Counted from the first letter of the stretch, positions 44,169 to 64,000 are shown. The stretch is DNA of 64,000 nucleotides from a virus (IMGVR_UViG_3300047382_000771:32001-96000), one strand, 5' to 3'. Numbers and translations are program-made. The notes: a model not told the origin generated them from the letters alone.

Positions 44169-47100
44169 TTATGAATAACTATTTGGTGTAAAAGATGTAT
44201 TACTAGAAGGGTAGGATCTTGATGGGCCCCAAATCAATCTCGCTGCACCAACTCCACCTAGGCCTCCGTTAGCTCGGGTATCGTCTTCTGCACCACCACC
44301 GCCGCCACCGAAATTTCCTCCGTGTCCGCCAGATGAGCCATCGCTCCCTCCAGAACCACCCTTGCCTATTGTTGAGCCGCTTCCAGATCCTCCAGAACCA
44401 CTACTACCAACACCATAAATGCCGACTCCGCCACCCCCATTAGATTGAGTGCCACCTCTTGCTTGACCTGCTCCGCCTCCTCCGCCGCCACCTGATCCAT
44501 TAAATCCATTTTTGTAATTTCCTGATGAACCTTGGCCTCCATTACCAGAATACCCAGCAGCACCACCTCCACCGCCGCCCCCGTTATTGTATTGAGAGGG
44601 TCCTCCGTATCCTCCTCTGAAGCCATTTGGGCCAGTAATATGAGAACCTCCAAGAGTGGCATTACTACTTCCATACGCTCCACCTTTACCACCGCCTGCT
44701 TCTAAAATGGTTGAATTGTTAAGTTTAATTACAGTATTACCTCCGTCAACCCCAGATGTTTTTGCCCAACCAACTCCTCCGCTACCACCTCTACCGACTA
44801 TGATGGTTATTTCATCACCTGGATTCACTGACTGTGAGGATGTGTAAGAGAGTGCTCCCCCGCCTCCTCCAGAACCAGAGTGTGTACTATTACCGAAAGA
44901 TCCAGCGGCCCCACCACCAGCACCAACCGCTAAAGCTGATATAGAATTAACGTGATTTGGTACTATGAATCTATATGTACCATCGGTTGTAAATTGCTCT
45001 TCACCCTGAGGGGTGATTGGGTTAGTTCCACCACTCATTTGAATGGTTTGTCCTTGGTTTAAAATTACAGAGCCACCTTGGTTTATAATAATGTCGGGAT
45101 CATTAGAGTCGTTCCAGTCATTAACAAACTCGGTTATAGTTTTTATTCCGTCCCCACTAAATGTGAACCCATTAAAAAACGAACTGTTGGTACTACTAGT
45201 TAATGAAACACTGGCCTGACTCTGGTCTGACGCAGTCACATTGCCAGAAAATAAAGAAGGGGAGCCTATAGAGCCTACCATGTACAAGGCTCTTATGTTA
45301 TCATTACCAGTAGAAGTAGTAAACTCAGTGTTCGGGTCAATCGGGTCCGCAAAAGTTCCAGGGCCATCCGTAACCCATTTAGCAAAAAGATATCCATTAT
45401 TAGGTGAAGCTGATAATGTGATTTTAGAATCCATTACCTTAGACAGGTTATTAACTCCATCCCCGTTTTGGGTACCTTGATTACCTGAAACCGTGATATT
45501 GTATCTGATTAATTTAACAGACAAATTAATAGTAGCATTTCCAGCCCCAACCGTAAAAGTTGTGCTAGGAGTGCTTGGACCAATTTGGCCAGCACCAGAA
45601 AGAGACCATGATTCAAATTCATAGCCAAGATTAGGGAGTGAGGATATAGTAACTACATCACCAATATTATAAACCCCACCCCCAGTTGCACTGGAGTTAG
45701 AGCCATTAATTGTAATTGTATAATCGATTGGTGTGAAGACCGCCTCTAAGAAAGCATTTCCATCACCGCCAATAAAAGTGGTTGATGCGGAGTTTACGTC
45801 TCCTATCGAGCCAGGTCCGCTTATGTTCCAGTGACTAAATTCGTAGCCGAGGTTAGGTGTAGCTGAAATGTTTACAACTTCCTGGTAATTAAATGAACTA
45901 GAACCAGTGGTTGAACCCGTGAAAGATTGCAGGCTTAGTTCGTAATTTATTAATGTATAAGTACCTTCTATTGTAGCATCACCTGCACCAACAGTAAAAG
46001 TTGTGCGTTTATTGAAAGAGTCAAATAAGGATCCAGTACCAGTTATGCTCCAATGACTGAACTCGTATCCAGTATTACCTATAGCTTCAATAGAAAAGGT
46101 ATCATTTATATTATATATGCCAGATCCAGTTTCGGTACCATTATCACCTTGTACTGAAATATTGTAATCAATAGCTGAGTAGTTTGCTGTAAGAGTAGTA
46201 TGCCCTTCTCCGACTGTAAAACTAGTCGAAGCTGAATTAGAATTAGCAATGCTTCCAGAACCTGACTTAGTCCAGTTTACAAACTCATAACCAGAGTTTG
46301 GTACAGCTTCAATAGTGAAGTTATCGTTAATGATGTGACTACCCCCAGCGGTTTCAACTCCGTTCTGTCCACGAATAGATATCGTGTAAGGTATTGCTAC
46401 ATAATTAGCTGTTATTGTTGCATCTCCAGCACCAACTATAAAATTAGTATTAGTGATAGAGCTATTTTGTATAACTCCAGATCCAGATAAAGACCAATGA
46501 GAGAATCTGTAGCCAGGGTCAGGGTTAGCTGTTAAAGATACAATATTATTTATATTATAAATGCCCCCTAAGCTTTCTGTTCCATTGTCTCCGTTTACAG
46601 TTATAGTATAATCGATAGCATTATATGTCGCTGATATGTCACAGTCTCCGTTTCCTACTGTGAATTGTGTTGATGCGGAGGAGGTGTCAGCTATAGTTCC
46701 AGCTCCAGATTTAGACCAAGATACAAATTCATAACCTAGGTCTGGAGTTGATAATAAATTAATATTGTCATTAATATTGTATATACCAGGGCTATTAACT
46801 GTTCCATTAGTACTATTAAAGTTAATTAAATAATCTATAGCTTTATAGATTGCAGTAAGTACTGCATCACTAGTATTGACAACATAACTAGTATTATTTA
46901 AACTGGAATTAGTAATTGACCCATCTCCATTTGTGGACCAATTAGAAAATAAATAGCCAAGGTCTGGTGTCGCTGTTATATTAACAATATTGCCTATGTT
47001 ATGAATCCCTGGGCCAGGTGTTTCCGTACCATTGGAACCGTCTGTACTAATGGAGTAATCTATTAAAGTGTAAATAGCTTCAACCGTACAATTACCTGCA

Positions 47101-52458: not shown

Positions 52459-52848
52459 TTACTTTTTTCGTTTAAATATCCCTTTAGCATAATTGTAAAA
52501 ATATAATATTAACCCTGGGAATGTAAAAATCAAGCAACAACCTATAATAAATAAAAAAGTAAACGCAGAATTAGATATACTATCGGGAGTGATGGAGGAT
52601 AATGGATAGTCCATTTCTTTAGTGATATTTAATTCATCCGATTTAATTATAGGTTTCATCGTTTTATTCGGTTGTTGTAATGTTTTTAGTTTACTGACAA
52701 CCTTTGTAGAACAAGAGCTTAATCCGAGAGTAAATAAGACATAAAGGCTAAGTAGCCATATATAGTGAGATAGTAAGCGAGGAAACTTGATAAACATAAT
52801 ATTGCTGATAGCAAAAGAGCTATTTTGTCTTTCATAATTTATATTCAT
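52459..52848 (-). CDS. Putative lipoprotein with a C-terminal TM helix (u-spanin-like topology)
   Basis: Hydrophobic signal ending in lipobox-like LSSC; about 48-aa soluble segment; TM AFTFLFIIGCCLIFTFPGLILYFY; tail KRKK. Alternative start at 52797. Confidence 0.45.
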   Translation of the reverse strand: MNINYERQNSSFAISNIMFIKFPRLLSHYIWLLSLYVLFTLGLSSCSTKVVSKLKTLQQPNKTMKPIIKSDELNITKEMDYPLSSITPDSISNSAFTFLFIIGCCLIFTFPGLILYFYNYAKGIFKRKK

Positions 52849-52849
52849 T

Positions 52850-53155
52850 TTATATAGAGCGCAATGAATTAATTATAAAAGCTAAGTTCCCAGCATGTAT
52901 GTTTGGTATTTTAAGGTTTCCTTTTGTAGTTGAAATGGTAAATCCGTATTCTTTTTCGTCTTCTGTTAGTAAATATGATATAAAATCATGCGCCCCATGT
53001 CTTTTTAACCAATCCCAATATATACTGCGAGTTCCATTTTTACAGCGAAGTAAAACATCTTCGCAGCGATATACTTTCGCATACAGTGTAACATCCCTAA
53101 AACATGAAATTTCGCTAGGAGGCTCAGATAGAACCGAATCTATAATTAATTTCAT
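52850..53155 (-). CDS. Hypothetical protein (likely start MKLII at 53155)
   Basis: The GTGTA motif sits 9 nt before ATG 53155, inside the longer predicted ORF. Confidence 0.55.
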   Translation of the reverse strand: MKLIIDSVLSEPPSEISCFRDVTLYAKVYRCEDVLLRCKNGTRSIYWDWLKRHGAHDFISYLLTEDEKEYGFTISTTKGNLKIPNIHAGNLAFIINSLRSI

Positions 53156-53164
53156 GCATAATAA

Positions 53165-53169
53165 TACAC
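53165..53169 (-). promoter_or_regulatory. GTGTA motif, 9 nt upstream of ATG 53155
   Basis: gtGTGTAttattatgcATG. Confidence 0.65.
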
Positions 53170-53179
53170 ACAAAAAAAA

Positions 53180-53566
53180 CTAGCAGTTCGATTTTATAAT
53201 TTTTACTATCTTGCTATCTATTAAATATGGGAACCTATCTAGCTCTTCAACTTTAAACCAACCGTACTCTGTATGCTCTTCATTCAGGTTAACATTAGGT
53301 ATTTCATCGAAGTTGTATTTGAATATGTCAAAAGTATTTGAACCCTTATATATAGTTTTGCAGAAAACAAGGTCTATTGGAGATATTTTTATGCCCGTTT
53401 CTTCGTCCAGTTCTCTGCTGGCACAAACCCTAGGAGACTCTGCAGGAGGCTCTCTTGAGCCTGCAAATATACTCCAGTAACCACTGTAGGCGATCTCTGG
53501 CCCTTCTATGCGTCTAGCCAAAAGGACTAAGGAATTATTATATATAATACAACCAGCAGCACTCAC
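53180..53566 (-). CDS. NUDIX hydrolase (likely start GTG 53566)
   Basis: Nudix box G(SREPPA)ESPRVCASRELDEETGI, with one extra residue after the Gly; LNEEHTEYGWF. Confidence 0.85.
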   Translation of the reverse strand: MSAAGCIIYNNSLVLLARRIEGPEIAYSGYWSIFAGSREPPAESPRVCASRELDEETGIKISPIDLVFCKTIYKGSNTFDIFKYNFDEIPNVNLNEEHTEYGWFKVEELDRFPYLIDSKIVKIIKSNC

Positions 53567-53576
53567 TGCCAATATG

Positions 53577-53581
53577 TACAC
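53577..53581 (-). promoter_or_regulatory. GTGTA motif, 10 nt upstream of GTG 53566
   Basis: agGTGTAcatattggcaGTG. Confidence 0.55.
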
Positions 53582-53585
53582 CTAA

Positions 53586-56084
53586 TTACTGGCAACTTTC
53601 ACAGATTTCTCCATTTTTCATAGCCTCGATACTACAAGCAGAGGCTTCGGTTGTTTCCTTGGATTCCGTTTCAGACGAAGAGGGGGTGGATTTCTCAATT
53701 TTACTAGCAGCCCTATTCCTTAAATAGTAGGTTGTTTTTAAACCATCTTCCCATGACTTCATATATATATCATTAAGATACTTGAGAGATGTCCCTTTAT
53801 TATACAGATTAAAACTAATCGATTGATCGAACCACTTTTGCCTAGAAGCATTACATTCAATCAACTTGATCATATCCCTGTCGAAAGCTGTTTTATATTT
53901 TTCCTTAATACGATCAGGTATAGATCCATTGAGTAGAGATAAATCTCCATCGCAACTTTTAACTAAAGCTGCCATTTCGCTATTCCATAAACCTATGTCC
54001 TTCATGTCTTTAACGAAATGAGGGTTTGTGATGTAAAAATTCCCGCTCTTATTTTCGTAAACGAATAAAACAGAAAAGTTTGGCTCAATGCTTTGTTCTA
54101 CACCATTAATGTAACCTATTGTTGCGGTAGGCGCAATAGCCATGACATTGGAGTTTCTCATGCCAAATTCAGCGATGTGATCCCTGACAGTTTTCCAGTC
54201 ATCAAGAGATTCACCCTTGCCTTTTGGTGGGGATTTTCTCTCTTGGACTTGGTCGTTGTATTGGTATGTCTTGTTCCTGTATGCCATTAGATTATTGTAA
54301 GAATCTATAGGGAGTATGTTTTGACTCCACAGAGAACCTTCGTAAGTTTCATAAGAACCTCTTTCTTTTGCTAATTTAGAGCTAGCAAGAATAGCTTGTT
54401 TGCTAAAAAACTCAAAGAAAGAATCGTTCCATTTAACGGCTTCGTCGCTATCAATATTAATATTCATTACATGCAATACATCATGAATACCCATGACACC
54501 CAAGCCTATAGGCCTGTTCTTGAGATTGGAGTTACTAGACTCCTTTGTTGGGTAGAAATTAATATCAATAACATTATCTAACATTCTTACCGCTGTATGT
54601 ATTGATTCTTTTAATTTTTCGTAATCAAATACATAACTACTTTTACCATGAGTCATCTTTTCCTTGACATGATTGAGTAGATTAATAGAACCTAAATTAC
54701 AAACAGCAGTTTCTCCTATCTCTGTTTTTTCTCCTTTACTGTACTTTGAGGCTTTTGTGTGGAGAGTTATTTCTGTACAAAGATTACTACTATGAACTAC
54801 TCCTTCGTGCTGATTAGTATAACGTATGTTACAGGGATCCTTAAATGTACTCCATGGGTGAGAAGTTTCAAATAAAACCTTTAACATTTTTTTCCATAAC
54901 TCTTTTGCAGGGCTTACTCTGTAATTTTTAATTAAACCTTCCTCTGCTTTAGCGCATAGTTCATTGTATTTTTTATCAAATTCAGCCCCAAAGCAATCGT
55001 GTAAATCAGCTTCTGTTGGGTCAAAAAAGTACCAATCATCTTCGTTCTGTACTCTCCTCATGAACTCATCTGGAATCCAAGACGCAGTATTCATATCGTG
55101 ACAACGTAATCTGTCATCTCCAGTATTTCTTCTTAAGTTGAGGAAATCTTCGTAATCCAAATGCCAGGGCTCTAGATAAGCACAGCCTGCTCCAGGCCTT
55201 TTACCTCCCTGGTTAACTGCAACCAGAAGATCATTGTATATTTTTAACCAAGGTATTAAACCTCCAGATATACCATTCGTTCCTTTAATGTGAGAACCAG
55301 CAGAGCGAAACGGAGTGACATCAAAACCTAAACCTCCTGCAAATTTTGACTTGCGAGCTTCTTGCCAAGCCCCATCAAAAATTCCATCAATACTGTCGTC
55401 AAAGGTATTTAAATAACAAGAGCTAAGTTGAGAATGCGTGGTACCACTATTGAATAAAGTGGGTGTTGAGGACGTGTAAAGTTGTTGGCTTATCAGATTG
55501 TAAAACTCTATAGCTTTTTCGTTCTTATCTTTCTCGTTTAAGGCTAAACCCATGGCGACCCTCATGTAGAAAGACTGTGGAGCTTCCATCACTTTATTAT
55601 CAAGTCTTATAAAGTACCTGTCATACAAAATTTGTATGCCGAGATATTTTAAGTTCCTGTCTCTTCTAATAGAAATTGCTTCTGACAATTTAGAGAGATC
55701 GAAGTCGAGCAACTTACTATCTAACCTTTCTTCTTTTACTAATTTTTTAGTATTCTGAATAAAACTTTTCCTGTACTGGAGCTTGAACGCATCCGAATCC
55801 GCGCTTTCTTTAAATACTTCTTTATACAAAGTATTGAGTAATAATCCCGCTGCAGCGTAGGAATAGTTTGGTTCTTTCTCTATCTTTTCCCTTGCCGAAA
55901 AAATCAGAGCTTGGTCTATCTCTCTCGTAGTGATTTTATCAAATAGCTGAAGCTGTGCGTCTAGCACTATCTCGCTAGCTGATACATCTTCAATGCCTTC
56001 ACACGCTCTTTGGGCGCTGGCATTAATTTTCTCTACAGTAAAGTCTTCTAATCTTCCGTTTCTCTTCTTAACTTTTATATCCAT
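53586..56084 (-). CDS. nrdA: Ribonucleotide reductase alpha subunit (class I) with an N-terminal ATP cone
   Basis: VKKRNG ATP cone; TPTLFNSG; SSCYL; QGGKRPGA; SNLCTEI; APTA; KTTYYLR; C-terminal CESCQ. Confidence 0.96.
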   Translation of the reverse strand: MDIKVKKRNGRLEDFTVEKINASAQRACEGIEDVSASEIVLDAQLQLFDKITTREIDQALIFSAREKIEKEPNYSYAAAGLLLNTLYKEVFKESADSDAFKLQYRKSFIQNTKKLVKEERLDSKLLDFDLSKLSEAISIRRDRNLKYLGIQILYDRYFIRLDNKVMEAPQSFYMRVAMGLALNEKDKNEKAIEFYNLISQQLYTSSTPTLFNSGTTHSQLSSCYLNTFDDSIDGIFDGAWQEARKSKFAGGLGFDVTPFRSAGSHIKGTNGISGGLIPWLKIYNDLLVAVNQGGKRPGAGCAYLEPWHLDYEDFLNLRRNTGDDRLRCHDMNTASWIPDEFMRRVQNEDDWYFFDPTEADLHDCFGAEFDKKYNELCAKAEEGLIKNYRVSPAKELWKKMLKVLFETSHPWSTFKDPCNIRYTNQHEGVVHSSNLCTEITLHTKASKYSKGEKTEIGETAVCNLGSINLLNHVKEKMTHGKSSYVFDYEKLKESIHTAVRMLDNVIDINFYPTKESSNSNLKNRPIGLGVMGIHDVLHVMNINIDSDEAVKWNDSFFEFFSKQAILASSKLAKERGSYETYEGSLWSQNILPIDSYNNLMAYRNKTYQYNDQVQERKSPPKGKGESLDDWKTVRDHIAEFGMRNSNVMAIAPTATIGYINGVEQSIEPNFSVLFVYENKSGNFYITNPHFVKDMKDIGLWNSEMAALVKSCDGDLSLLNGSIPDRIKEKYKTAFDRDMIKLIECNASRQKWFDQSISFNLYNKGTSLKYLNDIYMKSWEDGLKTTYYLRNRAASKIEKSTPSSSETESKETTEASACSIEAMKNGEICESCQ

Positions 56085-56094
56085 GAAAGTAATT

Positions 56095-56099
56095 TACAC
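56095..56099 (-). promoter_or_regulatory. GTGTA motif, 10 nt upstream of the nrdA ATG
   Basis: tcGTGTAaattactttcATG. Confidence 0.7.
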
Positions 56100-56186
56100 G
56101 ATCTTGTGTGGGGTTTTAAAAAAATACAATTAAATTGTTATCTTTTATAGATTAGCACATTTTTATGTGTATGACAAGACTATAAT

Positions 56187-57218
56187 TCAAGAGTTGTTAA
56201 CAAAATCATTTTGGTACATCTTTTCTACTAATTTATTAAAGTCTGTTTTTCTTGTCCAACCTAACTCTGTTTCAGCCATAGAGGGGTCTCCGCAAAGCTT
56301 GTGTACTTCTGCTGGTCTATAAAAATTGGGGTCAACTTCGAAAAATAATTTACCGTCGAGGGTGAAGTATTTTTCATTAACACCTTCTCCTCTTGAGATA
56401 AATGGTATATCTGCGTAAGCGAGACTAAGGTTTAAGAATTCTCTGACAGAGTGCATCTCCCCGCTGGCTAGAATATAATTTTTTGGCGAATCTTGGTTTA
56501 ACATTAACCATACACCCTCCATAAAATCTTCTGCGTCACTCCAATCTCTTTTAGCTTCTATGTTGCCTAATTTAAGTAGGGGCAGTTCGTCTGCATTTGA
56601 GTTTATTGCTTTTTTAAGTTTAGCTATTGAGTGGGAGATCTTCCTGGTGACAAAATCTAAACCCCTCCTAGATCCCTCATGGTTGAAGAGCCAGCCTTGA
56701 ACGGCATATAAACCGTAAGATTCTTTATAAACTCTAACTATGTGCCTCGCTGCACATTTAGCTGCCCCGTAAGGAGATTGGGGGTTTAATGGATGAGACT
56801 CGTTTTGAGGTGTGTACTCTACATCTCCAAACTCTTCAGATGATCCAGCATTATAAAAATTACAATGTGGGGAAAACCTTCTTATGGACTCCAAGATATG
56901 CAGGACTGAGTTTGAGTCTGTCTCCCATGTTTGTATGGGGTAATCCCAGCTCCCAGCAACGAATGACTGTGCTGCAAAGTTAATAAAGTAATCTGGCTGT
57001 ATGTCAATAATAACATCCCTGATACTATGAGCATCGTTTAGGTCCATGTTTAGTAATTGAAATCTGGGCTCTTTCTCTAGATGGAGGATATTACCATGGT
57101 TTTTGACACTCAACCTTCTCGCTGTTCCGTATATCATGTGCTTAGTATTGGCTAGAAGGTAATCAACCATGTGGCTTCCGTCTTGACCTGTAACTCCTGT
57201 GACTATAATTTTTTTCAT
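56187..57218 (-). CDS. gmd: GDP-mannose 4,6-dehydratase
   Basis: TGVTGQDGS; NFAAQSFV; SSEEFG; SPYGAAK; LFNHE; FVTRKI; RDWSDAEDF. True start MKKII at 57218 (ATGA overlap). Confidence 0.95.
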   Translation of the reverse strand: MKKIIVTGVTGQDGSHMVDYLLANTKHMIYGTARRLSVKNHGNILHLEKEPRFQLLNMDLNDAHSIRDVIIDIQPDYFINFAAQSFVAGSWDYPIQTWETDSNSVLHILESIRRFSPHCNFYNAGSSEEFGDVEYTPQNESHPLNPQSPYGAAKCAARHIVRVYKESYGLYAVQGWLFNHEGSRRGLDFVTRKISHSIAKLKKAINSNADELPLLKLGNIEAKRDWSDAEDFMEGVWLMLNQDSPKNYILASGEMHSVREFLNLSLAYADIPFISRGEGVNEKYFTLDGKLFFEVDPNFYRPAEVHKLCGDPSMAETELGWTRKTDFNKLVEKMYQNDFVNNS

Positions 57219-58003
57219 AACATTTGTATCCATTCTTCGGGGATTATATCTCGATAACCAGGACCTTCTGGGCCAAACCATTTAGATGGTGCGATAATTT
57301 TCTTTTGTTTATTTTGGTTTAACCATGCAGCCCACCAGCTAAAACTACTATTTGCGATAATATTGTTTTCACAGCAACTCATGATTTTGAGGTCCTCTAG
57401 ATTGGAGTTACCTTCCATGAATATCATGTTCGGATATTTTAGTGAATTCTTGCACCATTGTATATCATCTGAGAATACGAATATATTACCACTTGGGTTA
57501 ATTTCTTCAAGGGCTTTATTATAATAATCAGCACTTAAATTTAAGTGGTATTTAGGAGCATTTAAATAATCCGTGCGTCTTATATGTATGGAGCAAGATC
57601 CAAGGAAGTCGAAGTTGGTAAACTTAGGGTTTTCTCCAAAATCTAATAAATTAATAATACCCTCTCTATGATGTTTGAAATATTTCTCCGATTGCCAGAA
57701 GCCGTCAAGCAATAGATTGCCATCAAGGGTGCTCAGATCTAGGTGATTGTAGAAATTTTCATCGCTAATTTTGTAAACTTTTTTGCTAAAAAAGTCATCC
57801 ATGATTTGGCCTTCGAATCTATCTATTTTTATTTTCTCAAAGTTTTGAAGGTCAAACGTCCTTGGAGTACAACCCTTGCAACCACCTCTAAAAAAAGAAT
57901 CATCTAGGTATAGGTCTAGTCCGTAATCTAAACTTAATGAATAACCGTAGGCCCATTGAAAGATTTGATTAGCTAGTCCACCTTGTATTTTGGATACTAT
58001 CAT
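57215..58003 (-). CDS. GT11 alpha-1,2-fucosyltransferase-like
   Basis: GGLANQIFQ; GFWQSEKYF; IHIRRTDY; FSDDI.WC; IIANSSFSWWAAWL. Start MIVSK at 58003 (ATGA overlap). Confidence 0.9.
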   Translation of the reverse strand: MIVSKIQGGLANQIFQWAYGYSLSLDYGLDLYLDDSFFRGGCKGCTPRTFDLQNFEKIKIDRFEGQIMDDFFSKKVYKISDENFYNHLDLSTLDGNLLLDGFWQSEKYFKHHREGIINLLDFGENPKFTNFDFLGSCSIHIRRTDYLNAPKYHLNLSADYYNKALEEINPSGNIFVFSDDIQWCKNSLKYPNMIFMEGNSNLEDLKIMSCCENNIIANSSFSWWAAWLNQNKQKKIIAPSKWFGPEGPGYRDIIPEEWIQML

Positions 58004-58602
58004 ATTTCCACATACCAATTATGGTGACTTAAGACATTAACACCCAGACCCTTAGAGTTGAAGAAACGGTCTACACATTGTGAAACATGAGGGAAGTTAG
58101 GGTGATTGTAATCGTGCCCTGAAAGTATGCCTCCTGACCTTATTTTCGGAAACCAATTTTCTATATCTTGCTTGACAAATTTTTCAAAATGATTCCCGTC
58201 TATGTATACGAAATCCAAAGACGCATCTTCGAATAGTTCGTAGCATTCATTGGATAATTTCCTAATAAGCTCGAATCTATCTCCGTAGAAAGACATTCTA
58301 CCCTTGACCATGAGGTGTAGATCATCTTGCTTCTCTTGTTCTAAATTCCTCGAATCCCCTTTGTATTCGGAATAATTTAAATAAGGATCTATGCCGTAAA
58401 GTTTTGTGATATTAGTTTTATCTAAAATACTAATAGAATGACCACCATAAGCTACACCAACCTCTACCCCGATCTCATAATTATTGTCATTAATTATATT
58501 GGGTATATCGTTATGCCACTCTTTCCATTCCGAAAGATTTTCAGAAGGATATTTTGCAGTATATTTAACTTCGATTTCTTTTTGTTGTTTTTTACTTATC
58601 AT
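58000..58602 (-). CDS. Class I SAM-dependent methyltransferase (Methyltransf_24-like)
   Basis: EVGVAYGGHS; GIDPY; LDFVYIDGNH; GGILSGHDY. Confidence 0.85.
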   Translation of the reverse strand: MISKKQQKEIEVKYTAKYPSENLSEWKEWHNDIPNIINDNNYEIGVEVGVAYGGHSISILDKTNITKLYGIDPYLNYSEYKGDSRNLEQEKQDDLHLMVKGRMSFYGDRFELIRKLSNECYELFEDASLDFVYIDGNHFEKFVKQDIENWFPKIRSGGILSGHDYNHPNFPHVSQCVDRFFNSKGLGVNVLSHHNWYVEI

Positions 58603-58608
58603 GAGAGG

Positions 58609-59340
58609 TTAAAACATAGACCTTAATTGGGCGGATATTTTCTGAGACTCAAAAGAGTTCTGGGTGTACCAACTGTCTTTAGAGGTTATGTCGTGATTAT
58701 ACTTTAGGCCTGGAACTATATTTAGCTTGAAGTTTTTTTCATTCCTAAAACATAAACATAACACATATAGCACATCAACACCGAGTGGGTTTATTGGGTT
58801 TTTACAAGATTCAATACAAGAGGTGTAAGTGTGTTTGTTGACTAGAAAATTGCCTGTATTAATTAAACACTGGTCAATTGAATCTTTGGAATAAATTAGA
58901 CCCCTGAAATCATCAATATCTAAAGTCCTGCCTGAGTAACGGGAATAATCGAGAGAGGGCGAATTACATTTAGCTAAGCTTGGTAGATAAAAAGTTTTAC
59001 TATCCAATTCACCTGGTAATGAATCTAAATAATCAGTACCGATAATATTGTCAGAGTCGAGTAGAACCACCCAATCATTTGAGGCAAGATCTATAGCTTT
59101 ATATTTATTTAGGAAGGCTCCTAGGTTTTCTGTATTCCTGTGTATTTTTAGCTTTTTAGATCCTATACATTGCACTTGGTCAGATAGGTCATTGAAAATA
59201 CTTGGCTTGGAGTGATCATCTAAAATAATAATTTCATCAACCCTGTCATCGTTTACAACGTTGTGGAAAGATCTAATTGTTTCACTAGACCTATTGTAGG
59301 ATGTGATAGCTAGGGTAATTTTATTTAACATATAATGCAT
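58609..59340 (-). CDS. GT2-family glycosyltransferase
   Basis: AITSYNR; EIIILDDHS; NLG; DWVVLLDSD. Confidence 0.82.
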   Translation of the reverse strand: MHYMLNKITLAITSYNRSSETIRSFHNVVNDDRVDEIIILDDHSKPSIFNDLSDQVQCIGSKKLKIHRNTENLGAFLNKYKAIDLASNDWVVLLDSDNIIGTDYLDSLPGELDSKTFYLPSLAKCNSPSLDYSRYSGRTLDIDDFRGLIYSKDSIDQCLINTGNFLVNKHTYTSCIESCKNPINPLGVDVLYVLCLCFRNEKNFKLNIVPGLKYNHDITSKDSWYTQNSFESQKISAQLRSMF

Positions 59341-59941
59341 CCCCCCATTCGTACTCTGTCATTTTAGTTTCCTTTCTGGAGAAACCAAACTGGCTTAGGT
59401 AGTAGTCAATTTCATCTATCAGTGCACAGTTTTTATATAAATGTGCGGTGTTGACTTCTGTATAAATAAGGTCTATTGAATTTATTAAATTACCCGCACC
59501 CTTGAGAGCTAAGAGTTCCGCCCCTTGGATATCTATATTTAAAAAGTTATAAGAACTTATGTCAATTGAGTTTTCTTTAATTAAAGAATCGAGACGCTTT
59601 GTCTTCACTTTTATCGTCTCAGTAACATGTATGTGTGGGTGATGTATAGTATGTTTGCCTAAATCAAGTATTGAGGAAGACTCCCCGTTGTTTGTTATAT
59701 GGAAATCTAACTCTTGGTTATCAGTATCTGTAATCGCATAATTAAAGACACACTCAGGGCTTGGTGTATTGTTTGTTTTGCAAATAGATTTGTATTTGGA
59801 AGGGTTAGCCTCAATCCATATGGTGTTTTCTAAACCATGAAGAAGGTAGTCATTCCTTTCCTCCATAAGGTGAGCACCTATATGTATAATACCTTTTGGA
59901 GTACCATACTTAGATACTATATCTTTGAATTTAATTAACAT
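59321..59941 (-). CDS. FkbM-family methyltransferase
   Basis: HIGAH; IEANP; LNIDIQGAELLALKG; IYTEVN; WGDALY. Confidence 0.88.
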   Translation of the reverse strand: MLIKFKDIVSKYGTPKGIIHIGAHLMEERNDYLLHGLENTIWIEANPSKYKSICKTNNTPSPECVFNYAITDTDNQELDFHITNNGESSSILDLGKHTIHHPHIHVTETIKVKTKRLDSLIKENSIDISSYNFLNIDIQGAELLALKGAGNLINSIDLIYTEVNTAHLYKNCALIDEIDYYLSQFGFSRKETKMTEYEWGDALYVK

Positions 59942-60591
59942 TATAAGATTTTACTTAGGTCGTGCTTCTTAGTATTGAAGTTACTTTCTGAATGAACTCT
60001 ATGAAAGACGAGGCTGATTGGTATATTATGGAAAAGGTAGCCTTTTTTCAATAGCTTTAACCAAAAGTCAAAATCCTCTATTCCATCTAAAGACTCATCC
60101 CAGCCCCCAATTTCAAGTGCGTGTTGTTTTTTGAACACCGCACTAGAATTTGCTGTCTGGTTATCTCCAGAAAGGGATTTGTTTTTTATTTTACTATGCT
60201 CCATAGATAAGTCTGGTTGACCGCATGGTTTATTGTTTTCATCTATGTAAGTTATGAAGGAGCCAATCACATCGAATTTATCAATGTACTTTACCTGCTC
60301 TTTTAGTTTATCTTGATGCCATAAATCGTCGTCATCTTGGATAGCACAAAAATCATAATTAGACTCTTTAATTAATTTATTAAGAGTTTTGGCTTTCCCC
60401 TTGTCGTTAGCATAATCAAAAACCCTAATCCTAGTATCACTAAATGAATTAACTAAATCTTTTGAGTTATCAGTCGTTCCGTTGAACCCTACTAATAATT
60501 CCCAGTCCGTGAAATTTTGATTTAATATAGATTCGATACTTGATTTTATATATTTTTCTCCATTATATGTCGCTAGTAGAATAGAAATCAT
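59941..60591 (-). CDS. GT2-family glycosyltransferase
   Basis: SILLATYNGEKYI..SI.SIL.Q; IQDDDD; EDFDFW. Confidence 0.88.
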   Translation of the reverse strand: MISILLATYNGEKYIKSSIESILNQNFTDWELLVGFNGTTDNSKDLVNSFSDTRIRVFDYANDKGKAKTLNKLIKESNYDFCAIQDDDDLWHQDKLKEQVKYIDKFDVIGSFITYIDENNKPCGQPDLSMEHSKIKNKSLSGDNQTANSSAVFKKQHALEIGGWDESLDGIEDFDFWLKLLKKGYLFHNIPISLVFHRVHSESNFNTKKHDLSKIL

Positions 60592-60593
60592 TA

Positions 60594-61286
60594 CTAAGTC
60601 CTTAGTTCTTTGTGGTTTTTGTCGAGGGCTATTAATCTTGGATGAAACGGAGGTTTAAGACTTTCTCCATAACAGTAACCTGGGTCTAGGATTTTGGTTG
60701 GAGGGTTATCTATCATGTATCTATTAAGGTGACTTTCGTCGTGCCAAATAGCTATGTATTTTTTAGTTAAATCTTTATTAATGTTGCTTGATATTCGATT
60801 GGCCATTCTTAGGTAGGCAGATGAGCTGCCGCCATTAAAACCCCCAGCAAAATACTCCATTGGTTCTGAATCAGATACAAATGCCGAAGAGTCTTTATTA
60901 GTCTCAGGTGTGCCGCGTGTACCGTAGTAACCAGGATGTTGTGTGGCTACTAAATGGCTTAATATTTCCTCACCGACATGATCTCTAAAAATCATATCAG
61001 CATCGCAATAAAATAAATAATCGAATTTAGATAGTTGTTCTTTATTTTTATCAAAAATGTGATACCTACCTAAAGTCATCCAGGGCCAAGGCTCATGCTT
61101 CGTTAAGATAAAGTTCACAACTCTATCAGTATTTTTTGTATCGCATATAGTATCAGTAAAAATACAATACTCTACATCTATATTGTTTTGTTTTAAAAAA
61201 TATTTGTCCGCACTATGTATTAGGGGTTGTATAAATTTTTGGTATTTATTTGTAGCAATAATTAATAAGCCAACCTTAACACCCAT
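60594..61286 (-). CDS. GT6 (ABO blood-group-like alpha-1,3-Gal/GalNAc transferase)
   Basis: IATNKY; IFTD; WPWMTLGR; YLFYCDAD; HPGYY; YFAGGFNGG; WHDESHLNRY. Confidence 0.9.
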   Translation of the reverse strand: MGVKVGLLIIATNKYQKFIQPLIHSADKYFLKQNNIDVEYCIFTDTICDTKNTDRVVNFILTKHEPWPWMTLGRYHIFDKNKEQLSKFDYLFYCDADMIFRDHVGEEILSHLVATQHPGYYGTRGTPETNKDSSAFVSDSEPMEYFAGGFNGGSSSAYLRMANRISSNINKDLTKKYIAIWHDESHLNRYMIDNPPTKILDPGYCYGESLKPPFHPRLIALDKNHKELRT

Positions 61287-61914
61287 AGTTAACCACCCTT
61301 CCTTCTATATCACTAAAATCATTAGCTTGCACCCCGCATCTTTTTAATAAATACCATTTATTTTCAATAGATTGAAAAGATTTCCAAGTTTGGTCTATAG
61401 CATGTAGGTTAGGGTCTTCTCCGTTTTTTAAGGCATCTATTGATGCTTGTATTTTAGGTACGATCTTTTCACAAAAAGAAAGCCTAATAACATACGCAGA
61501 TGTAGTTTGAACATTATCGGATTTTAAAACTAAGCCTGATGAATCGATAGGTTCGCCTTTGGTCACATCATTATAGGATAGTTGGCATATATTAAAGTCT
61601 GGGTAACGTTCTATGAAATAATTCCACCTAGAAAGTAATTCACTAGTTTCTATCACTGGTATAAAATCATCCTCTAGAACAATAATTGTTTTATAGTCTT
61701 TCTCTATAGCGTCTTTGTATATATTTAAGTGGGATTGAGCGCAACCCACACTACGTAGGGGTAGTGTGGGTTGCTTTGATGTATCTATGGCTGGATATCG
61801 AGTAAAAAATCCCTCCTTAAAATTAAAAAAAGGTAGAACTAATTTGAGGGTGTGGCGATTCCTGTCCTCCCTTTTGTCTAGGTTTAAATAATAACAGTGA
61901 TCAATTTCATTCAT
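61276..61914 (-). CDS. GT25 (Lex2B/LgtB-like beta-galactosyltransferase)
   Basis: YLNLDKREDR; AID; GCAQSH; IVLEDD; TSAYVI; ID. Confidence 0.85.
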   Translation of the reverse strand: MNEIDHCYYLNLDKREDRNRHTLKLVLPFFNFKEGFFTRYPAIDTSKQPTLPLRSVGCAQSHLNIYKDAIEKDYKTIIVLEDDFIPVIETSELLSRWNYFIERYPDFNICQLSYNDVTKGEPIDSSGLVLKSDNVQTTSAYVIRLSFCEKIVPKIQASIDALKNGEDPNLHAIDQTWKSFQSIENKWYLLKRCGVQANDFSDIEGRVVNYGC

Positions 61915-62575
61915 AATTACAAGCAATGCCTACGCACATATCTTCGCACCCTCCCATGAGATTTTTACAGTCTTCGAACAAATCTTTTTGTTTAATGATT
62001 TTACTTACATATCTTTTACTTAAACAGTATCCACCGCCAGCCCAGTAATGATCTGGGAGTCCACTTAGGGAGTGGTTTGATATGAATATTTCTGGTAGTA
62101 CAAATAGTTTTTTAGATGAAGCCCAGTTCCTGAAGCCTTCAATCGTGCTTCCAATTATGGGTGTGAACCCACCGTAATCTTCAAACATAGTTTCATCGTG
62201 AAAACATTTCTTGAAATTATCGAAAGAAAATAAAGGGCTTGTTTGATTGTGTAGATTGTCTATGATTCTGCAGTCTATTTTAAGCAAGAAGTCAAATTCA
62301 AATATAGTTGAACAACAAGATAGCATTTTGAATGTTTTAATCGATAGGTTATCGTAAGACTCCTCGGTATTTAACCTTAAAACTTTAGTACTTGCGTCAT
62401 AAAGGAAGTCATTTTTATCAAGGGATGGATCTGCATAATAAGAAATTATTGTTATATTATCTTTTGACTCGCAATACTTATACCAATCAGATTTCTTTAT
62501 TTTATCTACTGAGCCAATATCTTTCTCGCAAGAATTTATACATATTAGTATTTCACTTGTGGATAAAATAGACAT
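61907..62575 (-). CDS. GT31 (Galactosyl_T)-like glycosyltransferase, DxD motif degenerate
   Basis: ESYDNLSIKT; FDFLLKIDCR (usually KxDDD); YWAGGGYCLS; EDMCVG. Start site uncertain. Confidence 0.6.
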   Translation of the reverse strand: MSILSTSEILICINSCEKDIGSVDKIKKSDWYKYCESKDNITIISYYADPSLDKNDFLYDASTKVLRLNTEESYDNLSIKTFKMLSCCSTIFEFDFLLKIDCRIIDNLHNQTSPLFSFDNFKKCFHDETMFEDYGGFTPIIGSTIEGFRNWASSKKLFVLPEIFISNHSLSGLPDHYWAGGGYCLSKRYVSKIIKQKDLFEDCKNLMGGCEDMCVGIACNYE

Positions 62576-63305
62576 CACTTCTTTCCTCCTCGTACTCTTT
62601 ATACTTACTACACACAGGGTCACCCATTACAAATTCCTTCTCAGATAAAACTGACCTAAGCAAATATTGGCATATCCACATGTCGGCATTAAACTCTGGC
62701 TCACCCATTTCCTCCCTCACCTCCTTGAATTTAGAATAAAACATGAGCATATCATCATAACTTCCGCCCACTACACCCATATTAATTAAATCCCAATCAT
62801 GGTAGTTTAACATAAACTTAAACCTATCATCCCAACCGAAGTGATCATGAACTTTGATATAAGGGAAGGAATCTAGGGGTATAGAATCCTTACAGCAAAA
62901 ATAAGACATACTAGGCATCTCAGAGATAAGGGTAGATGGATCCCTGACAACCTTCACATCTGAACCATCCGTATGAAAGACCACATCTGGTTTATCTTTT
63001 AGATTTAGCAAAAAATCATTAAAGCAGAAAAACCTCCAGTCATTATTGGAGTAGGTGCCAACATCTACTTTTTCGAAAGAAACTTGATCAGAGCTATATT
63101 CCTGCACGAATTCATCTGATAATTCGTCGTGAAAAACCACACCATTAATATCGCTGGAGTGAATTGAATCATACCAACCTTTAATATAATTAATATCTTG
63201 TTGCATAACCCTACCATCTGGACCCCTACCCACAACTGCGTTATCCGATGGGTCATTAGGGTGAGGCTTTGACGAAAAGTAAGAGGTTAGAATTAAGGTT
63301 TTCAT
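62553..63305 (-). CDS. Putative GT-A-fold glycosyltransferase
   Basis: VFHTDGSDV and NMGVVGG motifs; first gene of the glycan cluster. Confidence 0.5.
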   Translation of the reverse strand: MKTLILTSYFSSKPHPNDPSDNAVVGRGPDGRVMQQDINYIKGWYDSIHSSDINGVVFHDELSDEFVQEYSSDQVSFEKVDVGTYSNNDWRFFCFNDFLLNLKDKPDVVFHTDGSDVKVVRDPSTLISEMPSMSYFCCKDSIPLDSFPYIKVHDHFGWDDRFKFMLNYHDWDLINMGVVGGSYDDMLMFYSKFKEVREEMGEPEFNADMWICQYLLRSVLSEKEFVMGDPVCSKYKEYEEERSDVYFIHK

Positions 63306-63312
63306 TTTTTAC

Positions 63313-63341
63313 TTGACATTTTGCTAAATTATTGTTATAAT
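63313..63341 (+). promoter_or_regulatory. Perfect sigma70 promoter with extended -10, upstream of the sigma-factor gene
   Basis: TTGACA (63313-63318), 17 nt ending TGt, TATAAT (63336-63341). Confidence 0.9.
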
Positions 63342-63345
63342 AGTT

Positions 63346-63367
63346 TTTCCAAAACTGGTTTTGGAAA
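63346..63367. repeat. Perfect 10-bp inverted repeat over the predicted transcription start
   Basis: tttccaaaac-tg-gttttggaaa. Confidence 0.85.
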
Positions 63368-63415: not shown

Positions 63416-63448
63416 ATGTTGACATAACTATAGATTATATGTTAACAT
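63416..63448. repeat. Imperfect 33-bp palindrome in the sigma-gene leader
   Basis: atgttgacat-aactatagattat-atgttaacat; it contains a TTGACA with no matching -10. Confidence 0.6.
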
Positions 63449-63465
63449 AGTCATTTTTCAAATAT

Positions 63466-64000
63466 ATGGAGCAAAAAGATGATCAAGAGTTGGTATCCAA
63501 CCTTAAAGTTGGAAGGGATGTGAATGAAAGTTTATTTCATTTAGTCGAAAAGCATAGTGGCATATTTATAAATATGGTAAACCAGTACATGAATAAACAG
63601 TGTAGGTCTGAATTCATAAATGACAAGGAATACTATATTTATCAAGCTGCACTAAAATATGATTCAAGTAGGAATACAAAATTTTCAACATACCTAGGGA
63701 GTGAAACGAAGTGGATGTGCCTAAACACATACAACCGCTCGAAGAAAAAACATGAGGTTGATATTGATTATATAGAAAACCTAGGAGACAATTCCCAGCA
63801 ATACCATCAGATAATCAAAAGAGATACCCAGAATAAAATCTTAGAATTAGCTAACAGTAATCCAGACAAAAGAGTTCATAAAATTTTTCAATTAAGATAT
63901 AGTGGAGGCAATAAGAATAAAGTTATGCCATGGAGCGAGGTTTGCTCAAAAATAGGCCTAAGTGTGCAAGGCTGCATTAATGTACACGATCAAGCTTTAA
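63466..64000 (+). CDS. Phage-encoded sigma70-family RNA polymerase sigma factor (partial, runs off the window end)
   Basis: Manual translation MEQKDDQELV...LVEKHSGIF...YDSSRNTKFSTYL (region 2, compare FDPxRGxKFSTY)...FQLRY...MPWSEVCSKIGLSVQGCINVH (region 4 HTH). Confidence 0.85.
   Translation, partial: MEQKDDQELVSNLKVGRDVNESLFHLVEKHSGIFINMVNQYMNKQCRSEFINDKEYYIYQAALKYDSSRNTKFSTYLGSETKWMCLNTYNRSKKKHEVDIDYIENLGDNSQQYHQIIKRDTQNKILELANSNPDKRVHKIFQLRYSGGNKNKVMPWSEVCSKIGLSVQGCINVHDQAL

What the first reader, a model, noticed from the sequence alone, without database searches (positions are those of the whole stretch)
56187..63305. Phage glycan cluster with the enzyme families needed for a blood-group-A-like epitope
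SEEN: one coupled operon holds a GT-A-like gene, a GT31-like gene, GT25, GT6, GT2, FkbM, GT2, a methyltransferase, GT11 and gmd. KNOWN: GT25 enzymes add beta-Gal, GT11 enzymes add alpha-1,2-Fuc (H antigen), GT6 enzymes add alpha-1,3-GalNAc or Gal to H antigen (A/B antigens), and Gmd is the first step towards GDP-fucose. GT6 and GT11 genes have been reported in marine cyanophage P-SSM2, so the components are not unprecedented. INFERENCE: the cluster builds a methyl-decorated A-type glycan, either on the very Ser/Thr-rich virion proteins encoded in this window or on the host surface for superinfection exclusion.
Basis: partly seen in the sequence, partly recalled or inferred. Interest (0 to 1): 0.75.

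Follow-up and report, generated by a model that had tools for sequence, protein, structure and literature searches.

The report
Phage glycan island with A-antigen-type enzymes
An uncultured 200-kb marine phage carries a swappable ten-gene sugar-building operon whose last steps look like those that make the human blood-group H and A sugars; similar gene sets are already annotated in cyanophages, and where the sugar ends up is still unknown.

Summary
Ten tightly packed minus-strand genes (56187-63305) encode seven glycosyltransferases (a new GT-A protein with a GT6-like fold, GT31-like, GT25, GT6, two GT2, GT11), two methyltransferases (FkbM, Methyltransf_24) and Gmd.

The GT6 keeps the DXD motif, the catalytic WHDE and every residue that forms the fucosyl-galactose pocket in the solved A-antigen synthase BoGT6a. 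Its donor-side residues are of the GalNAc type. GT11 keeps HxRRxD.

- The genome has no fcl and no GalE-type epimerase, so GDP-fucose and UDP-GalNAc must be completed by the host.
- The "very Ser/Thr-rich" virion proteins are ordinary fn3, Ig-like and repeat fibres without mucin-like tracts.
- The target is not shown.

New context:
- The operon fills a hypervariable accessory site (about 1 to 9 kb) between conserved flanks in at least 80 related phages.
- GT11 lies within 8 kb of GT6 in 54 of 80 viral GT6 loci.
- None of 111 island proteins has a membrane segment.

Verdict: a new member of the known P-SSM2-type phage GT6/GT11 clusters, in a non-cyanophage lineage. Virion-protein glycosylation is slightly favoured over host-envelope remodelling. 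This scan re-read the same stretch in other windows; I saw no follow-up.

The parts
63434..63461 (-). sigma-70-like promoter candidate (TTGAAA, 16 nt, TATAAT; 11 of 12 matches), 128 nt upstream of the first gene
   Evidence: This is a consensus match only and is not conserved at this spacing in relatives. No GTGTA word lies before any of the ten start codons.
62553..63305 (-). orf1: 250-aa glycosyltransferase-like protein of no described family, with a GT-A fold nearest to GT6
   Evidence: No Pfam or NCBIfam hit. 208 homologues at E<=0.001, none carrying a functional name or a Pfam domain. Model pLDDT 93.5. Best PDB matches are BoGT6a, alpha3GalT and GTB, with TM-scores of 0.5-0.65. It is the first gene of the island in 5 of the 16 islands compared, the window's included.
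61907..62575 (-). GT31-like glycosyltransferase (beta-1,3-Gal/GlcNAc-transferase type)
   Evidence: Pfam Galactosyl_T at 25.6 bits. Model pLDDT 93. The top 30 fold matches are all GT31 enzymes. E211-D212 are invariant among homologues. The ATG at 62575 follows GAGGAGG.
61276..61914 (-). GT25-like glycosyltransferase
   Evidence: Pfam Glyco_transf_25 at 33.7 bits over residues 52-98. The only PDB sequence matches, all weak, are GT25 proteins, sharing the GCxxSH...EDD motif.
60594..61286 (-). GT6: minimal-domain, DXD-type histo-blood-group-A-synthase-like transferase
   Evidence: Pfam at 141.5 bits. BoGT6a E=5e-48, human GTA/GTB about 1e-34, alpha3GalT 1e-23. Key residues: D95-A-D97, H117, G119, T126, Y145, A147-G-G149, W181-H-D-E184, A220, K223.
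59941..60591 (-). GT2 glycosyltransferase (GT2a), which travels with GT6
   Evidence: Pfam Glycos_transf_2 at 88.1 bits. A homologue lies within 8 kb of GT6 in 26 of 80 viral loci, in most of them just downstream at 56-64% identity. GT6 and GT2a together form the divergent segment when the window is compared with L004.
59321..59941 (-). FkbM-family methyltransferase
   Evidence: Pfam Methyltransf_21 at 72 bits; TIGR01444 at 55 bits. 37% identical to P-SSM2 PSSM2_267, which lies next to that phage's GT6.
58609..59340 (-). second GT2 glycosyltransferase (GT2b)
   Evidence: Pfam Glycos_transf_2 at 52.1 bits.
58000..58602 (-). class I SAM methyltransferase (Methyltransf_24)
   Evidence: Pfam at 58.1 bits. 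Only weak PDB matches, to a demethylmacrocin O-methyltransferase.
57215..58003 (-). GT11 alpha-1,2-fucosyltransferase-like enzyme
   Evidence: Pfam Glyco_transf_11 at 87.6 bits. The motifs GGLANQ, HIRRTDY and SFSWWAAWL can be read in the translation. No solved relative was found by sequence.
56187..57218 (-). Gmd (GDP-mannose 4,6-dehydratase)
   Evidence: Pfam GDP_Man_Dehyd at 341.5 bits. The best NCBIfam match is TIGR01472 gmd at 313.6 bits, below its equivalog cut-off of 415. It is the only Epimerase-family gene in the genome.
53586..56084 (-). right flank of the island: nrdA, with its own GTGTA word at 56099-56095, 10 nt before the ATG
   Evidence: PHROG 84, E=3e-233. Sequence read. This gene anchors the 80 related loci.
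63466..63999 (+). left flank of the island: a conserved 189-aa gene of unknown function, transcribed divergently
   Evidence: Homologues (37-98% identity) mark the left edge of the island in 22 related loci anchored on nrdA and in the near-identical fragment L004/L088. No Pfam match.

Best explanation
The ten genes are one accessory operon that builds an oligosaccharide in the cytoplasm with soluble enzymes.

Inferred chemistry: inverting GT-A enzymes (GT31-like, GT25, two GT2) and the retaining-type orf1 lay down a chain that presents a beta-galactose. GT11 adds alpha-1,2-fucose to give an H-type end. The DXD-type GT6 then adds alpha-1,3-GalNAc to the fucosylated galactose to give an A-type end. 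The two methyltransferases O-methylate sugars.

Inferred donor supply: the phage provides only the committed step of the fucose pathway (Gmd). The host must supply Fcl and UDP-GalNAc.

Shown: the operon is a swappable cassette in a hypervariable site between nrdA and a conserved 189-aa gene. Related phages carry other glycan gene sets there, or none.

Least certain step: the acceptor. I favour phage proteins, probably virion surface proteins, slightly over host envelope precursors.
For: Enzyme families and folds.

GT6 specificity: all acceptor residues that PMC3516806 lists for 2'-fucosyllactose binding in BoGT6a are kept (His122, Gly124, Thr134, Tyr153, Trp189, Glu192, a small residue at Ile228, and Lys231). 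The donor-side residues are Ala-Gly-Gly, as in the GalNAc-using BoGT6a. The only characterised DXD-type minimal GT6, PaGT6, transfers GalNAc to H antigen and not to LacNAc.

Coupling of GT6 and GT11: GT11 lies within 8 kb of GT6 in 54 of 80 viral GT6 loci, or 26 of 42 groups at 90% identity. The comparison figure is 3 of 80 nrdA-anchored islands. L094 and L103 keep the order GT6-GT2a-FkbM-GT2b-(MT24 in L094)-GT11.

Operon: packed gene junctions.

Cassette nature: the site is about 1 to 9 kb in relatives. Against L004, nucleotide identity is 88-96% from the left flank through GT25, 84% at the junction, and 70-78% across GT6-GT2a. Metagenome contigs diverge at gene junctions.

Cytoplasmic and soluble: no membrane-type segment in the ten proteins or in 111 island proteins from 16 phages.

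Precedents for soluble viral enzymes glycosylating virion proteins: mycobacteriophages (Freeman 2023, cited in PMC12619734) and chloroviruses (PMC9614988).
Against: - No fcl and no GalE-like gene occur anywhere in the genome. All three GT11-bearing nrdA-anchored loci (a near-identical fragment and two copies of one other island) also lack fcl. The donor of GT11 is therefore not secured and could differ from GDP-L-fucose.
- The order of sugar additions and the presence of a beta-Gal acceptor are inferred from family names only. The GT25 and GT31 matches are weak at the sequence level.
- Nothing ties the glycan to virion proteins. The operon sits among replication and nucleotide-metabolism genes.
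- There are no mucin-like acceptor tracts.
- O-antigen glycosyltransferases are also soluble or peripheral proteins, so the absence of membrane proteins is weak evidence.
Confidence: 0.4

Rival explanations
1. Same enzymes, different target. The operon remodels the infected host's envelope glycans (LPS O-unit, capsule or S-layer glycan) by extending host undecaprenyl-linked intermediates, which the host's own flippase, polymerase and ligase then export. The effect would be to block superinfection or to stop progeny sticking to debris. This is the usual reading of cyanophage 'LPS' or cell-wall modification genes.
For: - The gene content mirrors O-antigen loci. Nucleotide-sugar genes are conserved (gmd in about half of 80 loci, often with fcl, a GalE-like SDR and Ugd), while the glycosyltransferases vary. 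Sister islands hold DegT, a CMP-sugar synthetase, a sialyltransferase-like gene and an aldolase.
- Dependence on host Fcl and UDP-GalNAc implies a host that itself makes such glycans.
- The promoter candidate is of the host type, and the operon lies in the replication region rather than the virion region.
- The cyanophage literature reads homologous clusters this way (PMC9602691; PMC12801897).
- E. coli O86 uses GT11 (WbnK) and GT6 (WbnI) on an Und-PP-linked unit (PMC4506291).
Against: - There is no initiating transferase, flippase, polymerase, ABC transporter or any membrane protein in this island or in the 15 others examined.
- From my own knowledge, the phage systems known to alter host O-antigen (Gtr, acetyltransferases, polymerase swaps) all use membrane proteins.
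- New O-units would not mask receptors already on the surface of a non-growing infected cell (inference).
Confidence: 0.33
2. The cluster builds a glycan that is not A-like. The GT11 and GT6 homologues would use other donors or acceptors. For example, a 6-deoxyhexose made by Gmd alone (GDP-4-keto-6-deoxymannose, or GDP-D-rhamnose if the Gmd is bifunctional as in chlorovirus PBCV-1) could take the place of L-fucose.
For: - No fcl is present in the genome, nor in the other GT11-bearing nrdA-anchored loci.
- The combination GT11 plus gmd without fcl recurs in 5 of 17 GT6 groups at 70% identity.
- No phage GT6 or GT11 has been assayed in the papers found.
Against: - The complete fucosyl-galactose pocket of GT6 is conserved, with DxD in 80 of 80 viral homologues, A-G-G in 76 and WHDE in 79.
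- The strong linkage of GT6 and GT11 fits an H-then-A order.
- 28 of the 80 GT6 loci do carry fcl.
- From my own knowledge, all characterised GT11 enzymes use GDP-L-fucose.
Confidence: 0.2
3. The enzymes hypermodify phage DNA with sugars to evade restriction, as in T-even phages and the systems of Pyle et al. 2024.
For: The operon lies between SSB and replication genes on one side and ribonucleotide reductase on the other. Diverse viral glycosyltransferases are known to decorate DNA (cited in PMC12619734).
Against: No ThyA-family pyrimidine hydroxymethylase is present, only ThyX. From my own knowledge, GT6, GT11, GT25 and GT31 act on glycan acceptors. Seven transferases plus Gmd is far more than known DNA glycosylation needs.
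Confidence: 0.03

Closest known systems
[quoted passage not shown]
   Same: A same-strand phage cluster with GT11, an FkbM-like gene next to GT6, GT6 (45% identity), GT25 and GT2 genes. S-SCSM1 also has gmd, fcl and an alpha-1,2-fucosyltransferase. Function is untested in all of them.
   Different: This phage is not a T4-like cyanophage. It has no psbA, and its helicase and terminase are at most 26% identical to any cultured phage. It carries no epimerases or fcl, whereas P-SSM2 has three epimerases. It adds orf1 and a GT31-like gene. Its cluster sits in a defined hypervariable site.
DXD-type minimal GT6 clade (cyanophage P-SSM2 GT6, marine metagenome homologues, Parachlamydia PaGT6), as defined in PMC3516806
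   Same: About 230 aa with no membrane-binding C-terminal domain and an intact DXD motif. PaGT6 is a metal-dependent GalNAc-transferase that needs H-type acceptors. The window protein keeps the same pocket.
   Different: It has not been assayed. It is 45% identical to the P-SSM2 enzyme. Its nearest relatives are unnamed environmental proteins (2429 clusters at E<=1e-10).
Bacteroides ovatus BoGT6a (PDB 4AYJ, 4AYL, 4CJ8)
   Same: The best solved match (E=5e-48). Acceptor and donor residues are identical or equivalent.
   Different: BoGT6a has NXN in place of DXD, is metal-independent and has a C-terminal membrane-binding domain. The phage enzyme has DXD and no such tail.
E. coli O86 O-antigen cluster (WbnH, WbnJ, WbnK = GT11, WbnI = GT6)
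   Same: A GT11 and a GT6 work in sequence to build a blood-group-like end on a glycan.
   Different: O86 makes a B-like epitope on Und-PP and relies on membrane-bound steps, starting with initiation by WecA; from my own knowledge also on Wzx and Wzy. The phage island has no membrane protein.
Virus-encoded virion glycosylation: mycobacteriophages (Freeman 2023) and chloroviruses (PMC9614988)
   Same: Soluble, virus-encoded glycosyltransferases act in the cytoplasm. From my own knowledge, chloroviruses also encode GMD and add methylated sugars.
   Different: In mycobacteriophages the genes sit in the structural operon and the acceptors are C-terminal tails of the capsid and tail-tube proteins. 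Here the operon lies away from the virion genes and no acceptor is known.

Membership tests
CAZy GT6 / Pfam PF03414 | Profile match above the curated cut-off over the catalytic domain | tested here: met
   141.5 bits against a cut-off of 25, covering profile positions 75-311 of 313.
CAZy GT6 / Pfam PF03414 | Metal-binding DXD motif and the catalytic Glu in WHDE | tested here: met
   D95-A-D97 and W181-H-D-E184, aligned to N95-A-N97 and E192 of BoGT6a. The same holds for 80 of 80 (DxD) and 79 of 80 (WHDE) viral homologues.
Histo-blood-group A synthase type (GTA, BoGT6a, PaGT6) | Pocket residues for a 2'-fucosylated galactose (His, Gly, Thr, Tyr and Trp, plus a small residue where alpha3GalT has Trp356) | tested here: met
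   H117, G119, T126, Y145, W181 and A220 correspond to BoGT6a H122, G124, T134, Y153, W189 and I228 (with the residue list of PMC3516806).
Histo-blood-group A synthase type (GTA, BoGT6a, PaGT6) | [quoted passage not shown] | not testable with these tools
   Only residues can be read: A147-G-G149 matches BoGT6a A155-G-G157. An enzyme assay is needed.
CAZy GT11 / Pfam PF01531 (alpha-1,2-fucosyltransferase) | Profile match above the cut-off, and the HxRRxD motif | tested here: met
   87.6 bits against 23.9. HIRRTD can be read in the translation. That this motif defines the family is from my own knowledge.
GDP-L-fucose pathway (Gmd plus Fcl) | Gmd present | tested here: met
   Pfam at 341.5 bits. 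The best NCBIfam match is gmd at 313.6 bits, below the equivalog cut-off of 415.
GDP-L-fucose pathway (Gmd plus Fcl) | Fcl (GDP-L-fucose synthase) present | tested here: not met
   Gmd is the only Epimerase-family match in the 200-kb genome. Relatives do carry an Fcl (425.6 bits to NF047922) directly after gmd.
CAZy GT31 / Pfam PF01762 | Profile match, GT31 fold and the ED motif | tested here: met
   25.6 bits against 23. The top 30 fold matches are all GT31. E211-D212 are invariant. The usual DDD motif is reduced to a single invariant Asp, D101.
CAZy GT25 / Pfam PF01755 | Profile match over the domain | tested here: inconclusive
   33.7 bits against 24, but only 47 of 199 profile positions matched. 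PDB sequence matches to GT25 proteins have E-values of only 0.3-0.9. It was not folded.
Bacterial O-antigen or capsule locus | Export and initiation genes (Wzx and Wzy or an ABC transporter; WecA- or WbaP-type initiating transferase) | tested here: not met
   No hydrophobic 19-residue segment in the ten proteins or in 111 island proteins. No such Pfam families were found.
T4-like cyanophage (Kyanoviridae) glycan cluster | Carried by a T4-like cyanomyovirus | tested here: not met
   No psbA. No megablast match to any phage record. Terminase and helicase are at most 26% identical to cultured phages.
Mycobacteriophage-type virion glycosylation | Glycosyltransferase genes inside the structural operon, and Ser/Thr-rich C-terminal acceptor tails | tested here: not met
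   The operon lies between nrdA and an SSB block. No Ser/Thr-rich tracts were found beyond fn3 domain boundaries.

The most novel reading that the evidence does not exclude
A large family of uncultured roughly 200-kb marine phages carries a serotype-like, freely exchanged glycan locus made only of soluble enzymes. These enzymes decorate the virion's own fibres or capsid. This phage's allele would put a methylated, blood-group-A-like cap on virus particles, so that closely related phages differ in 'glycotype'.
Probability: 0.25. Interest if true: 0.75.

Novelty: new member of a known kind. Interest (0 to 1): 0.45.

Why it matters
GT6 enzymes were long thought of as vertebrate blood-group synthases, and a prokaryotic or phage origin by gene transfer has been proposed (PMC3516806). 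This locus shows the full H-then-A enzyme pair embedded in a mobile cassette of a non-cyanophage marine lineage. The comparison also shows that the GT6-GT11 pairing is common in viral contigs, with thousands of environmental homologues.

If the enzymes work as predicted, A-type glycans are being made in the sea by infected bacteria or are carried on virus particles. That would bear on phage-host recognition, on lectin-based capture of viruses, and on the history of the ABO family. The enzymes are small, soluble and easy to assay, so the claim is directly testable.

The weaker side: similar clusters have been annotated since 2005, none has a known target, and this one adds no direct evidence on that point.

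Tried and rejected
- Megablast of the cluster and of 16 kb beside it against 50,697 phage records: no match.
- Sequence search of GT11 against PDB chains: no hit.
- Host identification: no tRNA in the window and no psbA. Helicase and terminase match only distant Firmicutes phages at 22-26% identity. The best genome-collection hits for GT6 are MAG contigs of mixed labels, several of them probably mis-binned phage DNA. The host remains unknown.
- Expression: no RNA holder is listed among the public runs. The DNA runs show the same genotype in several seawater and viral metagenomes but say nothing on timing.
- Promoter conservation: the sigma-70-like site is not kept at a fixed place in relatives' islands, and none has GTGTA close to its first start codon. 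Timing therefore stays inferred.
- The 'Ser/Thr-rich acceptor' idea: scanned all ORFs of at least 200 aa for windows with at least 60% Ser+Thr. Only fn3 domain boundaries of one fibre protein qualified.
- DNA-glycosylation idea: no ThyA-type hydroxymethylase was found.
- 'Moraphages' (PMC12619734) were considered as the lineage. That paper describes contractile tails and found no tape measure protein, so I did not equate them.

Full report
**What is there**

The window is bases 32001-96000 of a single 200,094-bp IMG/VR virus record, rated 100% complete by CheckV. Its first 30 bases recur 161 bases before the end, and its GC content is 36%.

Positions 56187-63305 hold ten minus-strand ORFs and no other credible genes. 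Some listed ORFs begin too early. With start codons chosen by Shine-Dalgarno context and family N-termini, the genes are:

| Gene | Window coordinates |
|---|---|
| orf1 | 63305-62553 |
| GT31-like | 62575-61907 |
| GT25 | 61914-61276 |
| GT6 | 61286-60594 |
| GT2a | 60591-59941 |
| FkbM | 59941-59321 |
| GT2b | 59340-58609 |
| MT24 | 58602-58000 |
| GT11 | 58003-57215 |
| gmd | 57218-56187 |

Neighbouring genes overlap by up to 23 nt or lie at most 6 nt apart, with ATGA overlaps at MT24/GT11 and GT11/gmd.

**Family assignments**

Pfam places nine of the ten genes above its curated cut-offs. The strong calls are GT6 (141.5 bits), GT11 (87.6), Gmd (341.5), GT2a (88.1), FkbM (72), MT24 (58.1) and GT2b (52.1). 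The weak calls are GT25 (33.7 bits over 47 residues) and GT31 (25.6 bits).

I folded the two least certain proteins.
- orf1 has no Pfam or NCBIfam match. It has 208 homologues at E<=0.001, none with a functional name or a Pfam domain, on contigs of up to 216 kb. It folds at pLDDT 93.5 into a GT-A fold. Its best solved matches are GT6 enzymes: BoGT6a, bovine alpha3GalT and human GTB.
- The GT31-like protein folds at pLDDT 93. Its first 30 PDB matches are all GT31 members: B3GalT5, B3GNT2 and B3GalT6. Its homologues keep an invariant Glu-Asp pair near the C-terminus.
- For GT25, the only PDB sequence matches are GT25 proteins. They are weak but share the GCxxSH...EDD signature.

For Gmd, the best NCBIfam match is the gmd equivalog, at 313.6 bits and therefore below its strict cut-off of 415.

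**What the GT6 residues say**

The closest solved protein is BoGT6a of Bacteroides ovatus, an enzyme that makes A antigen (E=5e-48). Human GTA and GTB follow at about 1e-34, and alpha3GalT at 1e-23.

I read the alignment against the residue list in PMC3516806.
- The phage enzyme keeps His117, Gly119, Thr126, Tyr145, Trp181 and Glu184. These correspond to BoGT6a His122, Gly124, Thr134, Tyr153, Trp189 and Glu192.
- It has Ala220 where alpha3GalT has the Trp that excludes a 2'-fucose.
- It keeps Lys223 (BoGT6a Lys231).
- On the donor side it reads Ala-Gly-Gly, like the GalNAc-using BoGT6a.
- Unlike BoGT6a it has an intact DXD motif (Asp95-Ala-Asp97) and no C-terminal membrane-binding tail.

This places it in the clade that PMC3516806 defines by the cyanophage P-SSM2 enzyme, marine metagenome homologues and Parachlamydia PaGT6. 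PaGT6 was shown there to be metal-dependent, to transfer GalNAc to H trisaccharide or 2'-fucosyllactose, and to be inactive on LacNAc.

The prediction 'alpha-1,3-GalNAc onto Fuc-alpha-1,2-Gal' therefore rests on conserved residues plus one assayed clade member. It does not rest on an assay of this protein.

GT11 shows the family's GGLANQ, HIRRTDY and SFSWWAAWL motifs.

**The donor gap**

Gmd is the only Epimerase-family gene in the whole genome. The phage therefore has no Fcl and no GalE-type 4-epimerase. This is not a general trait of such phages.
- In 33 of the 80 related loci, gmd and an fcl lie in the same locus, in most of them adjacent. The copy tested matches the Fcl equivalog at 425.6 bits.
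- A GalE-like SDR lies within 8 kb of GT6 in 50 of 80 viral GT6 loci.
- All three GT11-bearing nrdA-anchored loci (a near-identical fragment and two copies of one other island) also lack fcl.
- GT11 plus gmd without fcl recurs in 5 of 17 GT6 groups at 70% identity.

The simplest reading is that the phage supplies the committed step and the host finishes GDP-fucose and provides UDP-GalNAc. The alternative is that the 6-deoxyhexose is not L-fucose. I keep that as a rival explanation.

**Context: a swappable island**

Searching IMG/VR with nrdA gave 80 loci at 74-97% identity. In 22 of them both flanks are present: nrdA, and a homologue of the divergent 189-aa gene at 63466. The space between the flanks ranges from about 1.05 kb with no ORF to 9 kb.

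Among 15 non-redundant islands plus the window there are 50 protein families, most of them seen once or twice. They include GT2, GT8, a CAP59-like transferase, a sialyltransferase/MptE-like protein, a CMP-sugar cytidylyltransferase, an HpcH aldolase, a DegT aminotransferase, Fcl, a GalE-like SDR and a short Ugd. One site holds a spermidine synthase instead.

GT6, GT25 and GT31 of the window are found only in near-identical fragments from one sample (L004/L088 and L007) and in one more distant relative (L101).

Against L004, nucleotide identity is 88-96% from the left flank through GT25, 84% at the GT25-GT6 junction and 70-78% across GT6-GT2a. This points to replacement of that two-gene segment by recombination.

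Contigs from four other seawater or viral metagenomes carry stretches of the operon without a single difference. Other contigs in the same runs break away exactly at gene junctions such as 57218.

**How general is the GT6-GT11 pair?**

A profile search found 224 viral contigs encoding a GT6 relative. I examined the best 80 (45-80% identity). Within 8 kb of GT6 the counts are:

| Neighbour | Loci out of 80 |
|---|---|
| GT11 | 54 |
| gmd | 34 |
| FkbM | 29 |
| fcl | 28 |
| GT2a | 26 |

After grouping GT6 at 90% identity, 26 of 42 groups have GT11. In the nrdA-anchored glycan islands GT11 occurs in 3 of 80. The Fisher p-value is 1e-18, but related sequences inflate it.

L094 and L103 keep the window's order GT6-GT2a-FkbM-GT2b-(MT24 in L094)-GT11 at 37-67% identity.

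All 80 viral GT6 proteins have DxD, 76 have Ala-Gly-Gly and 79 have WHDE. The wider protein database holds 2429 clusters at E<=1e-10. JGI's automatic naming already labels many of them 'histo-blood group ABO system transferase'.

In GenBank phages, GT6 is annotated in P-SSM2, P-SSM5, S-CAM9 and others, often next to GT11. The P-SSM2 cluster holds GT11, an FkbM-like gene, GT6 and GT25. S-SCSM1 is described with gmd, fcl and an alpha-1,2-fucosyltransferase. The kind of cluster is therefore known. No member has a demonstrated product or target in the papers I found.

**Where does the glycan go?**

This is not shown.

For a cytoplasmic protein target, most plausibly virion proteins:
- None of the ten proteins has a membrane-type segment, and none of 111 island proteins from 16 phages has one.
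- There is no initiating transferase, flippase, polymerase or transporter.
- From my own knowledge, the phage systems known to change host O-antigen use membrane proteins.
- Mycobacteriophages and chloroviruses glycosylate virion proteins with soluble enzymes.
- A second block with a GT4 and a GT9-like gene lies about 3.5 kb away on the other strand.

For a host-envelope target:
- The island's make-up resembles O-antigen loci.
- It depends on host nucleotide-sugar enzymes.
- It sits among replication and nucleotide-metabolism genes.
- It has a near-consensus sigma-70-type site 128 nt upstream instead. That site is only a pattern match and is not conserved in relatives.

They neither support nor exclude glycosylation.

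DNA glycosylation is unlikely, because there is no ThyA-type hydroxymethylase and only ThyX.

I put virion or other phage-protein glycosylation slightly ahead of host-envelope remodelling.

**Verdict**

The finding is a new member of a known kind of phage glycan cluster, in an uncultured non-cyanophage lineage. Two facts are added here: it is one allele of a hypervariable, membrane-protein-free glycan island, and the GT6-GT11 pairing is widespread in viral contigs.

Noticed in passing
window 61741-61774: A perfect 14-bp inverted repeat with a 6-nt loop lies inside the GT25 coding region, over the codons for the conserved GCAQSH motif. About 0.001 such repeats are expected per window by chance. 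The near-identical relative L088 keeps the stem with one G-U change; the 55%-identical L101 does not.
   Followed up: partly
window 63346-63367: A 10-nt palindrome (TTTCCAAAAC, ca, GTTTTGGAAA) lies between the two divergent sigma-70-like promoter candidates, just downstream of the perfect rightward TTGACA/TATAAT pair at 63313-63341. It could be an operator or a 5' hairpin.
   Followed up: no
L087 3942-7015 (genome 98942-102015, just beyond the window's end): A second glycosyltransferase block on the plus strand holds a 638-aa GT4 protein with a DUF4214 domain and a 386-aa GT9-like (heptosyltransferase-type) protein. It lies downstream of an SSB gene and several small unknown genes.
   Followed up: partly
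L014 1370-9880, L016 2049-9679, L023 8999-9901: Sister islands at the same site carry quite different pathways: a CMP-sugar synthetase with a sialyltransferase-like gene and an HpcH aldolase; a DegT aminotransferase after gmd (perosamine-type); GT8; a CAP59-like transferase; and a 284-aa Ugd lacking its C-terminal domain. In L023 the site holds a spermidine synthase instead of glycan genes.
   Followed up: partly
window 57218, 57314-57364, 56082-56304: In four public seawater or viral metagenomes, some contigs match the operon perfectly. Others diverge exactly at gene junctions or near gene ends. This suggests co-occurring phages that share gmd or nrdA but carry other neighbouring genes.
   Followed up: partly
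window 44169-49547: The 1792-aa protein with 18 InlB B-repeats lies in the window's only 2-kb stretch with 44% GC, against 33-42% in the other 2-kb stretches and a genome mean of 36%.
   Followed up: no
window 52459-53581: Three small genes sit between nrdA and nrdB. One (52459-52848) has a strongly hydrophobic segment. This spacer also varies among relatives: nrdB follows nrdA directly in some loci and lies several kb away in others.
   Followed up: no
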